A stretch of 64,000 nucleotides of DNA from NCBI RefSeq assembly GCF_009914755.1, contig NC_060925.1. The stretch is one strand, 5' to 3'. This stretch comes from the human T2T-CHM13v2.0 reference genome, Homo sapiens. Shown piece by piece: positions 10,719 to 13,840 of the stretch. The notes beneath the pieces are model-generated. The model worked only from the letters and a program-made list of their open reading frames with translations, was not told the DNA's origin and did not search any database. Within the stretch, counting starts at the first letter, position 1; each line of letters starts with the position of its first letter. The position numbers and the translations under genes were made by a program.

Positions 10719-11895
10719 ATAGGCTATCATGTTGCAGGTTTCTAGGTGCCTTGATACTTTGATGTCCCTAATAATGAAAGTAACTGCAAGAAGGGCAGTC
10801 AGTTTATGCCTGAACATAAGGAAAAATTCATATATTAGAAGAACACTGTACACAGATATAAGTACACCAGATAAATGAATATAAGCTTTACTAAAGATTC
10901 ATTACCAAATACAATTTTACTCTTCAAAAATTTTACTTATCAAAAATTTATTGAAGATACCTCATAATCTCTTCCCTTTAATAAAAATTAAAATGTAAAT
11001 GAAATAAAATTATAGGATTCCTAAATATTAAAGACTACTAAGTACAAGAAACAAGATTAGTAAATATTAACAAGGTTACTAAATATCAACCATGAGATTC
11101 TTGAGTTTCTAATTTGCCATTCACTTGCAGAAGTTCACCTGTGAGTTTTGCATTGGTAGATAAAGAAATTCATCTATCTGCTACAATTGGCCTCAGATTC
11201 TAGGTGAATCTGGTCTGTCTACAGCACTCCAAATATAAAGAAGAAATAATGATAGTTTCACTTTCTGTAACCCTACTCAGTGGATTCTGTTGCTCTACTT
11301 GTTTAGCTGTAACTACTGTCAGAAATTTTCTGTGGAGGCCAACACAGGATAGTCGGTTTTTTAATGTGATACAGTTGTGATTGTAACAGGCTGTATAAAT
11401 AGCCATCAGTGGGTACCATGGAAACCACCTGGAATTCTTTATCTCTGTCCTAGAAAGTACTGGAGCTTTTGTACAGCAACTGAAGACATATTTAAGATCT
11501 TTCCAAGTAATAAAAAAGGTCTTTGTGCATTTTAAACATTAAATAAAATTAAATCACAAATAATTATTAAATAGCAAATTACTAGGTTAGGCCCTTTCTC
11601 TAGCTCTCTGGGAATCATGGTTTTCAGACCTATGGTTCTCAAACTGGGGCTGGAAGTCAAAATTAATGAACAAATTACCCCAAATATTCTTAGTACTTTC
11701 AAAAATTTATTTGGAAATTACACATTTGTCTGCTATAAAGTTGCAAAGGCTAAATAAGTTTTTACTGATTAAAAATTTACATAATAATTTACTTATCAAA
11801 AAATTACATAATATGACTCATATTCCCTTGTAAGGATACATAAGGATAGAGAACGGAAAATGTATCCTTATGTATGTATCCTTATCCTTGTATCC

Positions 11896-13510
11896 TTTTT
11901 TTTTTTTCTGGTTCCACTTTGTTTTTATTCACTGAAACCAATAAAAGAGTTGAACACAGCAAAACTTGGAACAACAAGGAATTAACTGGGTGGCAGCAAA
12001 GGGCACCAAAAGAAAAGATAAATTGCCCAAAATAAATAAGGGCTGGTGAGGAAAATAAAAAATGTTTCCGAAAAAAGTGGGCTGTGATGCAAGGTACTGT
12101 GAGATAAAGAAGCAATTGTTTCACGCAAAAAATAGAGGGGGGCACCTCGCTGAAGCCAGCGAGGCCGCTGCACCACGTGGTGTCAGGAGACCTTAGCAAT
12201 GGCCCAGGTTCGCTGGCTGCATCTGCTGTGCCAGGCGCCTACTGTGCGCTCCTCTCCTCATCCAGCAAAGCTCGGCCTACATGGAGGTTTGCTGACTCCC
12301 CCAGGCCACCTTAGTTCCTCTCGGAGTCTGTATGGGTCTGGGCGAGATGCAGGCAGCTTATCTGTTTATGGGGCTGCCTCCTCCAGTACACGGAGAGCTC
12401 TTTGAGGCAAGGGACAATTTGATCTGTTTCTTCATCCTTAAAATTTCTGCTGCTTTTGCTGTTTCTGTGATTTCCTTGGTTTCTCCATTGGTGTGCTTAA
12501 AGCGATCTCCTCTACACGAACGCTAGGGCAGAGCACATTTTCGCACAGGCAGCGCCGCAGCTTGCCCTGGATCTTGTCGATTGAGTTGAAGTCGGACACG
12601 TGGAAGACATGGGTGGACTTGGGCTCCGAGGCGATCTCCTCCAGCTCCTCCCTGAGCGCCTCTCCCACGTCCACGGTGAAGACGCGGATGCCGGCGCGAA
12701 TGCCGGCACGGATGCCGGCACGGTGGGCAGCCGCCGTGGCGTCCAGCACCAGGTCCTGGCTGCAGCCATTGGTGAGCAGTATGGCCACCTGCTTGTAGGC
12801 GCAGTCCCCGGAGCGGTGGCCGGCGCGCGGGGAGAAGCTGCGGGCTGTGATGTGGTGCAGCGCTTCGCCGGTGTTGGTGTTGCCCTGTGGTAGGCGATGC
12901 ATCGGGCGGCCGCCTTGACCTCCTCCCGCGAGCCGAAAACGCCCAGTTCGAAGGCCACGTTGGGCAGGTCGCTGGAGCGCACGGTCCCCATGCAGTCGGG
13001 GCCCGCCTCGAAGGTATCCACCAGGTTGACTACCCACTGCTGCACCTTCTCAAAGTCCTCCTTGCCCACGCTGGAGGAGGTGTCCAAGAGGAAGACCAGA
13101 TTGTAGTGGACGCTTTTGCAACCTGTCCGTTGGGCCTATCAGCCGCCGCCCCGACTCCACAGCGGCAGCATCCAAAGGAAGCCGGCCACAGCATTCCCTC
13201 GGAGGGCAGCCATGGCTCTCCTGTTCTTGGGGACAGGCTTTTCTTGGCCATTTAGGCCAAGAAAGACGCAGTTAGGGCCTACTGCAGCATGGCCTAGCAG
13301 GGAGGCACTCGGGCTGCCAGCAGGAGTCCAATCCTGGGCCCAGGCCCACTGGAAGCAGCAGCTGGGAGAAGACACCAGCCCCAGGCAGCCCCCTCCTGGG
13401 GGTCACCTGCCAGCAACTCGCCCACTCTCCCCCCAATAATCTCACAAACTCAGACTCTAGACAAGACTTGCAGTAAGTCTGGAGGCTTTCCCCAGGCCAG
13501 GGGGCCAGAG
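11896..13510 (-). pseudogene. COL22A1: Processed pseudogene (retrocopy) of a short COL22A1 transcript; the symbol given is the parent gene
   Basis: From ATG at 13213 the minus strand reads MAALRGNAVAGFLWMLPLWSRGGG**AQRTGCKSVHYNLVFLLDTSSSVGKEDFEKV...CENVLCPSVRVE/GDRFKHTNGETKEIT, the recalled COL22A1 signal peptide and vWA domain, without introns. Disabled by tandem TGA TAG (13141-13136) and two frameshifts (~12885, ~12511). AATAAA at 11929-11924, A12 tail at 11907-11896. Confidence 0.92.
12520..13205. promoter_or_regulatory. CpG-island-like segment carried by the COL22A1 retrocopy
   Basis: Visibly GC- and CpG-dense (e.g. ggccggcgcgcgggg, gggcggccgcc) against a CpG-poor, AT-rich intron. Regulatory function is not shown. 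Confidence 0.6.
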
Positions 13511-13840
13511 AGGATACATACATAAGGATATGTAGGGGAAAATTAGTCAAAAATAAAGAAGTTAAGTGAAGCGCAAATTTGAGGGAAAAAAACTTTTAAA
13601 TAAAAATCTCCCTGGTAAACTTCAAATTCACTAAAATCATTTCTATGTGGATGATTTTCTCTTTTCTTTAATATATTTTAGTAGCTAAATAATCTACACA
13701 AATGAGATTTAAAAATTGAACTCCAGACAAATGGAAACGTGAAGGATCCTATGAGCATTTCCTGTCCTTATAAGGGTGGAGGTTTTTTCTTCTTCATCTT
13801 TTTGTCTCCAACTCCTAGCCCAGTCTTTGGCATGCGGTAC

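What the first reader, a model, noticed from the sequence alone, without database searches (positions are those of the whole stretch)
11896..13213. Retrocopy preserves a short, collagen-free COL22A1 isoform (signal peptide + vWA + novel C-terminus)
Seen: COL22A1 similarity runs intron-free from the ATG through the vWA domain to ...KEIT and stops at 'ATCACAG|' (12465/12464). It then continues into ~560 bp of non-COL22A1-coding sequence ending in AATAAA + 16 nt + poly(A). Known: retrocopies are usually 5'-truncated and keep the parent's 3' end; this one keeps the 5' end and has a different 3' end. Inference: the template was a spliced COL22A1 mRNA using an alternative terminal exon with intronic polyadenylation, expressed in germline or early embryo. 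With the frameshifts repaired, the frame reads into the new exon for 35 aa (ETAKAAEILRMKKQIKLSLASKSSPCTGGGSPINR*, TAA at 12360-12358). That predicts a small secreted vWA-only protein lacking the TSPN and triple-helical domains, which may be unannotated or extinct.
Basis: partly seen in the sequence, partly recalled or inferred. Interest (0 to 1): 0.8.

Follow-up and report, generated by a model that had tools for sequence, protein, structure and literature searches.

The report
Dead COL22A1 retrocopy preserving short isoform
A dead, intron-free copy of the collagen XXII gene inside an NR5A2 intron was made from a short messenger RNA that ended in an alternative last exon within the gene's fourth intron, so it preserves evidence of a collagen-free form of that gene.

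Summary
On the minus strand, window 13513-11896 is a processed pseudogene of COL22A1 (chr8 of the same assembly). It is colinear with exon 1 (5'UTR), exon 2 (ATG, signal peptide), exon 3 (whole vWA domain) and exon 4 (ends ...KEIT). It then continues into a 578-nt segment that lies 4.9 kb inside COL22A1 intron 4, on the same strand. In the parent gene this segment follows an AG acceptor. It ends at AATAAA plus a cleavage site, exactly where the retrocopy's poly(A) begins. The next regular exon lies 5.4 kb further downstream. The template was therefore a spliced, intronically polyadenylated short COL22A1 mRNA. The retrocopy is dead: it has two stop codons and two frameshifts. In today's human gene the acceptor, AATAAA and an open frame (264 aa, 20-aa tail rather than 35) are all intact. 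The new exon shows no clear recent constraint. Its 171-182-nt core is, however, retained at 80-84% in an old partial duplicate of COL22A1 upstream. I could not check present-day expression or transcript annotation. Retrocopies as archives of isoforms are a known idea, so interest is moderate.

The parts
13511..13543 (-). Upstream copy of the likely target-site duplication, abutting the retrocopy's 5' end (3 nt overlap with the first CCT of exon 1)
   Evidence: Direct repeat D1 13518-13543 vs 11836-11861, 26 nt, 81%. My hand extension to about 33 nt has one 4-nt CATA slippage.
13294..13513 (-). Copy of COL22A1 exon 1 (5'UTR); parent chr8:140033382-140033162
   Evidence: 92.7% identity, 204 of 220 aligned bases; genome hit E 1.3e-77; parent exon followed by a gtaaga donor
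13123..13293 (-). Copy of exon 2 (rest of 5'UTR, ATG 13213-13211, signal peptide); codons 25 and 26 are now TGA (13141-13139) and TAG (13138-13136); 8-nt insertion in the UTR part
   Evidence: 87.1% identity; parent chr8:140002776-140002614 with AG and GT flanks
12539..13122 (-). Copy of exon 3 (complete vWA domain), carrying a 6-nt deletion, a 1-nt deletion (about 12886) and a 24-nt tandem duplication (12699-12722)
   Evidence: 87.7% identity. Pfam VWA lies in two frames. The parent exon translation matches VWA 1-172/174, E 1.3e-52. It is 97% identical to collagen alpha-1(XXII) of Rhinopithecus bieti. Repeat D2.
12465..12538 (-). Copy of exon 4 (...DRFKHTNGETKEIT) with a 1-nt deletion (about 12511)
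   Evidence: 97.3% identity, 72 of 74; parent chr8:139963663-139963589 ends ATCACAG|gtaagg
11908..12464 (-). Copy of an alternative terminal exon that lies inside COL22A1 intron 4 (parent chr8:139958642-139958065). It reads 35 codons to TAA 12360-12358 in the retrocopy and carries AATAAA at 11929-11924.
   Evidence: 87.2% identity in ungapped columns, 485 of 556; genome hit E 4.0e-175; AG acceptor and poly(A) site in the parent
11961..12131 (-). Core of the alternative exon that is also kept in an old upstream duplicate of COL22A1
   Evidence: 84% to chr8:140346709-140346879. The parent is 80% identical to the same place. Background in the flanks is 58-64%.
11896..11907 (-). Poly(A) tail, 12 A; the first 3 could be templated (parent reads CCAGAAA)
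11862..11895 (-). 34-nt filler between the poly(A) and the downstream target-site copy. It is an inverted copy of the end of the target-site duplication and forms a hairpin with it.
   Evidence: Inverted repeats I1 (20 nt, 100%), I2 and I3. DNA fold -11.9 kcal/mol, z -4.62, with 0 of 200 shuffles as good.
11832..11861 (-). Downstream copy of the likely target-site duplication
   Evidence: D1

Best explanation
Window 13513-11896 (minus strand) is an L1-type processed pseudogene of COL22A1, inserted antisense in the last intron of NR5A2. Its template was not the 65-exon collagen mRNA. It was a short, capped, spliced and polyadenylated COL22A1 transcript made of exons 1-4 plus an alternative last exon. 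The exon-4 donor was spliced to an AG acceptor 4.9 kb into intron 4. The transcript was then cleaved and polyadenylated about 578 nt later, at an AATAAA signal inside the intron (intronic polyadenylation). That mRNA encodes the signal peptide, the whole vWA domain and a short unrelated tail, with no TSPN or collagen domains. Its stop codon lies in the last exon, so the mRNA would not be expected to be an NMD target. Steps shown here are the exon-by-exon origin, the splice junctions, the poly(A) site and the position of the new exon inside intron 4. Also shown are the decay of the retrocopy and the intact signals and 264-aa frame in today's human gene. Steps inferred are that the transcript was present in germline or early embryonic cells, that insertion happened some tens of millions of years ago, and that L1 did the copying. 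Whether the short form is a regular protein-producing isoform or a rare by-product is open. I lean slightly towards a real but minor isoform whose coding tail is not itself conserved.
For: The five parent pieces are colinear on chr8, minus strand. All junctions fall on GT/AG sites of the parent. The parent's genomic sequence diverges from the retrocopy exactly where the poly(A) begins (CCAGAAA|gtagagc versus CCAG + A12). The parent is COL22A1: its exon 3 translation is 97% identical to collagen alpha-1(XXII) of Rhinopithecus bieti. Regular exon 5 lies at chr8:~139952683-139952534, downstream of the new exon. The parent short-form frame is open for 264 aa. Only one retrocopy of these exons exists in the assembly: searches found only the chr1 copy and chr8 places. 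The new-exon sequence has only 3 places in the genome, so it is not a dispersed repeat. An old DNA-level duplicate 313-342 kb upstream keeps an exon-3-like piece with a GTAAGT donor. It also keeps a new-exon-like piece preceded by a pyrimidine tract and AG, with a core at 80-84% against 58-64% in the flanks. This suggests long-term constraint on part of the new exon.
Against: Three points argue against a regular, functional isoform. (1) With the old duplicate as outgroup, changes private to the parent exon (22) are not clearly fewer than changes private to the dead retrocopy (30) in 524 columns; in the core the counts are 5 and 8 of 175. (2) Non-CpG divergence of the new exon (10.8%) is about twice that of coding exon 3 (5.5%), as expected if it drifts in both lineages. 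(3) The coding tail differs, at 20 aa in the gene and 35 aa in the retrocopy. In addition, 0 of 222 fetched collagen XXII-like proteins carry the tail motifs, and a search with the junction frame found nothing (weak test). Two points argue against a textbook L1 insertion. The target-site copy does not abut the poly(A) but sits 34 nt further on. No TTTT/AA-like nick site is evident.
Confidence: 0.9

Rival explanations
1. The template was a one-off aberrant transcript using a cryptic acceptor and a cryptic poly(A) site in intron 4. It was captured by chance and was never a regular COL22A1 isoform. The structure is as described, but it says nothing about biology.
For: There is no clear constraint on the new exon in the parent lineage (22 vs 30 private changes). 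Non-CpG divergence is 10.8% vs 5.5% for exon 3. The tail is not conserved. The acceptor has an interrupted pyrimidine tract. The tail is found in 0 of 222 fetched proteins. A short 1.6-kb RNA is simply easier to copy in full than a 6-kb one (general knowledge).
Against: The AG acceptor, AATAAA and a U-rich stretch downstream (gcttgctttttg) are still intact in human after tens of millions of years. The 171-182-nt core is kept at 80-84% in a duplicate whose flanks are at 58-64%. That duplicate also has a pyrimidine tract and AG at the matching place.
Confidence: 0.4
2. Template-switch chimera: the L1 reverse transcriptase started on one RNA (the 3' segment) and jumped to a COL22A1 mRNA.
For: Chimeric retrocopies exist (recalled, not checked here), and the 3' junction of this insertion is irregular.
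Against: Both parts come from the same gene, the same strand and the right order, 4.9 kb apart. The join falls exactly on an exon-4 GT donor and an AG acceptor. A polymerase jump has no reason to respect either site.
Confidence: 0.03
3. The 3' segment is older NR5A2 intron sequence, or the whole block is a DNA-level duplication rather than an RNA copy.
For: None found.
Against: Four introns (30.4 kb, 4.8 kb, 33.6 kb and 4.9 kb in the parent) are missing precisely. A poly(A) follows the parent's cleavage site. The segment matches chr8 at E 4.0e-175.
Confidence: 0.01

Closest known systems
Processed pseudogenes used as archives of transcript isoforms. Shemesh et al. 2006 PNAS is cited for this in Carelli et al. 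2016, PMC4772013 (passage read). Shemesh 2006 itself was seen only in reference lists and is not held.
   Same: An intron-free copy records a splice or termination variant of its parent gene that differs from the reference mRNA.
   Different: This is a single case. The variant is an alternative terminal exon with intronic polyadenylation that removes all collagen domains. I do not know whether it was in those authors' lists.
[quoted passage not shown]
   Same: Retrocopies revealed a novel alternatively spliced exon and alternative transcript ends of the parent genes.
   Different: Those parents are non-coding. Here the parent is a protein-coding collagen gene and the variant predicts a truncated secreted protein.
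Intronic-polyadenylation isoforms that give truncated soluble proteins (general class; recalled, no call)
   Same: An upstream donor is joined to a terminal exon inside an intron. The stop codon and poly(A) signal lie in that exon, and the downstream domains are lost.
   Different: Present-day use of the COL22A1 site was not shown here. The evidence is a genomic fossil plus intact signals.
LOC100420255, NCBI's curated COL22A1 pseudogene model (hub table, 12465-13413)
   Same: Same locus and same parent gene.
   Different: The model covers only the part matching the reference mRNA. It omits 100 nt of 5'UTR (13414-13513) and the whole alternative-exon part with the poly(A) (11896-12464).

Membership tests
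L1-mediated processed pseudogene (retrocopy) | Colinear copy of a spliced mRNA with introns precisely removed, at a locus other than the parent's | tested here: met
   Five parent pieces on chr8 are joined at GT/AG sites; the copy is on chr1
L1-mediated processed pseudogene (retrocopy) | Poly(A) tail at the parent transcript's cleavage site, downstream of a poly(A) signal | tested here: met
   AATAAA 11929-11924, 16 nt, then 12 A; the parent genomic sequence diverges there
L1-mediated processed pseudogene (retrocopy) | Target-site duplication directly flanking the insert | tested here: inconclusive
   There is a 26-nt direct repeat at 81% (D1). Its downstream copy is separated from the poly(A) by a 34-nt inverted filler. 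The empty site in an outgroup was not available.
L1-mediated processed pseudogene (retrocopy) | Insertion at a TTTT/AA-like endonuclease site | tested here: not met
   The target-site copy starts ATTTTCC in the retrocopy's orientation and is not A-rich. The consensus is recalled, and the site may have mutated.
Alternative terminal exon with intronic polyadenylation | Regular upstream donor joined to an AG acceptor inside the following intron | tested here: met
   ATCACAG|gtaagg donor and cttgaatAG|GAACAGC acceptor in the parent; the junction is preserved in the retrocopy at 12465/12464
Alternative terminal exon with intronic polyadenylation | Poly(A) signal and cleavage site upstream of the next regular exon | tested here: met
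   The new exon ends at chr8:139958065; regular exon 5 is at ~139952683-139952534
Alternative terminal exon with intronic polyadenylation | Use of the site in living cells (junction reads, 3'-end reads) | not testable with these tools
   No RNA data or transcript annotation for chr8 were on hand. Paper searches gave nothing on a short COL22A1 form.
Functional retrogene | Intact open reading frame | tested here: not met
   Codons 25 and 26 are TGA and TAG, and there are two 1-nt deletions
Template-switch chimeric retrocopy | Two parts from unrelated RNAs joined at a non-splice position | tested here: not met
   Both parts are from COL22A1 and are joined donor-to-acceptor

The most novel reading that the evidence does not exclude
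COL22A1 has an old, still usable intronic-polyadenylation switch after exon 4. It yields a small secreted vWA-only protein (264 aa in human) in place of the collagen. Its terminal exon carries a roughly 175-nt element that has been constrained for more than 100 million years, long enough to survive in an ancient partial duplicate of the gene. The isoform is missing from current annotation.
Probability: 0.2. Interest if true: 0.55.

Novelty: new member of a known kind. Interest (0 to 1): 0.35.

Why it matters
Collagen XXII is a marker of the muscle-tendon junction, and per the abstract of PMC13300400 in the listing its variants have been linked to intracranial aneurysm. A collagen-free, secreted vWA-only product, or merely a premature-termination switch that limits full-length output, would change how expression data and 5' variants of COL22A1 are read. 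The retrocopy gives an exact junction and 3' end to look for. It also shows that NCBI's pseudogene model for this locus is truncated at both ends. The principle that retrocopies record isoforms is already established, so the value lies in the specific, testable prediction.

Tried and rejected
- COL22A1 + retrocopy: 0 papers. LOC100420255: 0 papers.
- COL22A1 + isoform + polyadenylation: 10 papers, listing only. I read passages of PMC8268681, which do not describe a short form.
- 'Collagen XXII' + isoform: 78 papers, of which 15 were listed. I read passages of PMC8851264 only, with nothing relevant; the other 63 were not looked at.
- One search was badly specified (2 of 5 generic terms, 45,935 papers) and is uninformative.
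- (retrocopies, intronic polyadenylation and related terms) listed 12 of 116 papers. None of the 12 contained the phrase 'intronic polyadenylation'.
- Shemesh 2006 (PMC1360558) is not held.
- A protein search with the retrocopy's junction frame (54 aa, longer proteins) gave 36 candidates, none at E <= 10. This is weak, because the query is short and the database huge.
- I scanned the 222 fetched proteins for the tail motifs and found 0. My filter flagged two proteins. P0005 has a different continuation after KEIT. P0124 is the regular form cut short.
- No exon-4-like sequence was found in the upstream duplicate, within the 40 kb examined.
- The template-switch, DNA-duplication and pre-existing-intron readings were rejected for the reasons given under rivals.
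- I did not fold the protein; a vWA fold would add nothing to the question.

Full report
WHAT IS IN THE WINDOW. On the minus strand, the stretch 13513-11896 is an intron-free copy of the 5' part of a collagen gene followed by a poly(A). Stop-to-stop frames and Pfam show a von Willebrand A domain split over two frames. Profile positions 1-74 fall in frame 12512-13135 (E 4.2e-10). Positions 74-173 fall in frame 12438-13049 (E 5.6e-20). ATG is at 13213-13211, the junction is at 12465/12464, and AATAAA is at 11929-11924. There are 16 nt to the tail and 12 A at 11907-11896. TAA is at 12360-12358, closing the 54-aa frame that ends ...KEITETAKAAEILRMKKQIKLSLASKSSPCTGGGSPINR.

WHERE IT CAME FROM. I searched the window's own assembly with the two halves and refined the matches with blastn on the fetched loci. 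Every piece maps to chr8, minus strand, in order:
- Window 13513-13293 maps to chr8:140033382-140033161 (92%).
- Window 13295-13121 maps to chr8:140002778-140002612 (86%).
- Window 13125-12536 maps to chr8:139997832-139997260 (83%).
- Window 12538-12465 maps to chr8:139963663-139963589 (96%).
- The 3' segment, window 12466-11905, maps to chr8:139958644-139958065 (84% over 584 columns, genome-wide E 4.0e-175).

In the parent, each piece is bounded by AG and GT. Exon 4 ends ATCACAG|gtaagg, and the 3' segment is preceded by ...cttgaatAG|GAACAGC. At its end the parent reads CCAATAAAAGTGGAACCAGAAA|gtagagcataggcttgctttttg, while the retrocopy has CCAG followed by 12 A. The copied RNA was therefore cleaved and polyadenylated there.

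The translation of parent exon 3 is a complete vWA domain (PF00092 1-172/174, E 1.3e-52). It is 97% identical to 'collagen alpha-1(XXII) chain' of Rhinopithecus bieti (P0003). This agrees with the hub's label for the pseudogene.

THE NEW EXON LIES INSIDE INTRON 4. A tblastn of P0003 against 80 kb downstream of exon 4 placed the next regular coding exon (GFDLMDLFSVKEILGK...) at chr8:~139952683-139952534. Later exons follow in order. Intron 4 is thus about 10.9 kb. The new exon begins 4,946 nt after exon 4 and ends about 5.4 kb before exon 5. It rules out a template-switch chimera, a pre-existing NR5A2 intron segment and a DNA-level duplication.

STATE OF THE RETROCOPY. A global alignment of a parent mRNA model (1,604 nt, joined in a script from the locus files) with the retrocopy gave these identities:

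| Piece | Identity | Non-CpG divergence |
|---|---|---|
| Exon 1 | 92.7% | 6.4% |
| Exon 2 | 87.1% | 9.8% |
| Exon 3 | 87.7% | 5.5% |
| Exon 4 | 97.3% | 2.7% |
| New exon | 87.2% | 10.8% |

Codons 25 and 26 have become TGA and TAG. There are two 1-nt deletions (about 12886 and 12511), a 6-nt deletion and a 24-nt tandem duplication (12699-12722; also D2).

The retrocopy's 5' end (13513) lies 100 nt upstream of where NCBI's pseudogene model starts (13413). If that model follows the reference mRNA, the template started further upstream than the reference transcript. This is an inference.

THE SHORT FORM IN TODAY'S HUMAN GENE. I joined parent exons 2, 3 and 4 with the new exon in a script. This gives an open frame of 264 aa starting MAGLRGNAVAGLLWMLLLW... 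and ending ...TKEITGTAKAAGILRMEKQIKSSLS, with stop TGA. The tail is therefore 20 aa, not the retrocopy's 35. The stop lies in the last exon, so by the usual rule the mRNA would not be an NMD target (established knowledge, not tested). The acceptor AG, AATAAA and a U-rich stretch after the cleavage site are intact. The pyrimidine tract before the acceptor is interrupted, so the site looks moderate at best. That is my reading; no scoring model was available.

IS THE NEW EXON CONSTRAINED? The evidence points both ways.

Against constraint, its non-CpG divergence (10.8%) is about twice that of coding exon 3 (5.5%). This is expected if it drifts in both lineages.

I also found an outgroup. A sensitive comparison shows an old DNA-level partial duplicate of the COL22A1 5' region. 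It lies on the same strand, 313-342 kb upstream of exon 1. It has two recognisable parts:
- An exon-3-like piece at chr8:~140375131-140375566. It is 73% identical over 143 nt, with an acceptor-like site and a GTAAGT donor. Its frame is broken, and the tblastn E-values are 0.001 and 0.02.
- A new-exon-like piece at chr8:140346680-140347303, 63.7% identical over 661 nt to the parent. It is preceded by a pyrimidine tract and an AG.

The flanking intron is colinear at 58-61%. No exon-4-like piece was found in the 40 kb examined.

With this duplicate as outgroup, changes private to the parent number 22 and changes private to the retrocopy number 30, in 524 gap-free columns. In the core the counts are 5 and 8 of 175. 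So there is no clear slowing of the parent over the time since the insertion.

For constraint, a 171-182-nt core of the new exon (window 12131-11961) is 80% (parent) to 84% (retrocopy) identical to the duplicate. The surrounding background is about 60%. Part of the exon therefore seems to have been held over a much longer time, either as a 3'UTR element or as an intronic regulatory element unrelated to the isoform. Local gene conversion is an untested alternative. The sequence is not a dispersed repeat, since only these three places exist in the assembly at the search's sensitivity.

AGE. Private changes on the retrocopy lineage are about 6-7% of sites (30 plus half of 12 ambiguous, of 524). 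With recalled primate neutral rates, this suggests an insertion some 40-60 million years ago, near the base of the anthropoid primates. This is rough and untested, because no other primate genome was on hand.

INSERTION HALLMARKS. The best direct repeat flanking the insert is 11836-11861 versus 13518-13543 (26 nt, 81%; D1), extendable by eye to about 33 nt. Its downstream copy does not touch the poly(A). The 34 nt between them (11895-11862) are an inverted copy of the end of the duplication. I1 is 20 nt and 100% complementary to 13511-13530. Together with the downstream copy the filler forms a hairpin of -11.9 kcal/mol, with z -4.62 and 0 of 200 shuffles as stable. A snap-back extension of the nicked target strand before priming on the poly(A) would give this arrangement. 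A pre-existing palindrome or later slippage of the AGGATA(CA) motif would give it too. I could not decide without the empty site. No A-rich start of the duplication is seen.

WHAT IS KNOWN. That retrocopies archive transcript isoforms is established. Carelli et al. 2016 say so, citing Shemesh 2006 and others (passage read). Pan and Lin 2020 used retrocopies to find a new spliced exon and alternative transcript ends (abstract read). For COL22A1 specifically I found nothing on a retrocopy or on a short vWA-only form:
- COL22A1 + retrocopy: 0 papers. LOC100420255: 0 papers.
- COL22A1 + isoform + polyadenylation: 10 papers, listing only, with passages of one paper read.
- 'Collagen XXII' + isoform: 78 papers, 15 listed, with passages of one read.

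None of the 222 collagen XXII-like proteins fetched carries the tail (0 of 222). A search with the junction frame found nothing. Both tests are weak, because the database is clustered at 90% and the query is short. I could not see GENCODE or RefSeq transcript models for chr8 or any RNA data, so the isoform may well be annotated already.

VERDICT. The retrocopy is a fossil of a short, intronically polyadenylated COL22A1 transcript. NCBI's pseudogene model misses both of its ends. Whether the short form matters biologically is open. This is a new member of a known kind, of moderate interest, with a precise and cheap test available.

Noticed in passing
L019-L022 (chr8:140340001-140380000 of the assembly): about chr8:140346680-140347303 and about chr8:140375131-140375566: There is an old, decayed DNA-level partial duplicate of the COL22A1 5' region, 313-342 kb upstream of the gene on the same strand. 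It has an exon-3-like piece with a GTAAGT donor (73% over 143 nt) and an alternative-exon-like piece (63.7% over 661 nt; core 80-84%). The intron flanks are colinear at 58-61%. I do not know whether it is annotated.
   Followed up: partly
window 11961-12131 (parent chr8:139958121-139958302): A 171-182-nt AT-rich core of the alternative exon is far better kept in the old duplicate (80-84%) than its surroundings (about 60%). It may be a conserved non-coding element inside COL22A1 intron 4, with only three copies in the genome.
   Followed up: partly
window 11832-11895 and 13511-13543: The 3' junction of the retrocopy is irregular. A 34-nt inverted copy of the target-site duplication sits between the poly(A) and the downstream target-site copy. 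It forms a hairpin (-11.9 kcal/mol, z -4.62). Snap-back synthesis at the nick is one possible origin.
   Followed up: partly
window 12685-12722: Three tandem 12-nt units (CGGATGCCGGCRCG-like) give GIRAGIRAGIR in the retrocopy. The parent has one unit, so 24 nt were gained after insertion.
   Followed up: yes
window 13414-13513 and 11896-12464: NCBI's pseudogene model LOC100420255 (12465-13413) omits 100 nt of parent-derived 5'UTR and the whole 569-nt alternative-exon part with the poly(A). The 5' extension hints that the template began upstream of the reference mRNA start.
   Followed up: partly
window 13285-13274 (parent exon 2 start): A tiny upstream open frame (ATG CTG CTG TAG in the parent) precedes the main ATG in the COL22A1 5'UTR. 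In the retrocopy it reads ATG CTG CAG TAG.
   Followed up: no
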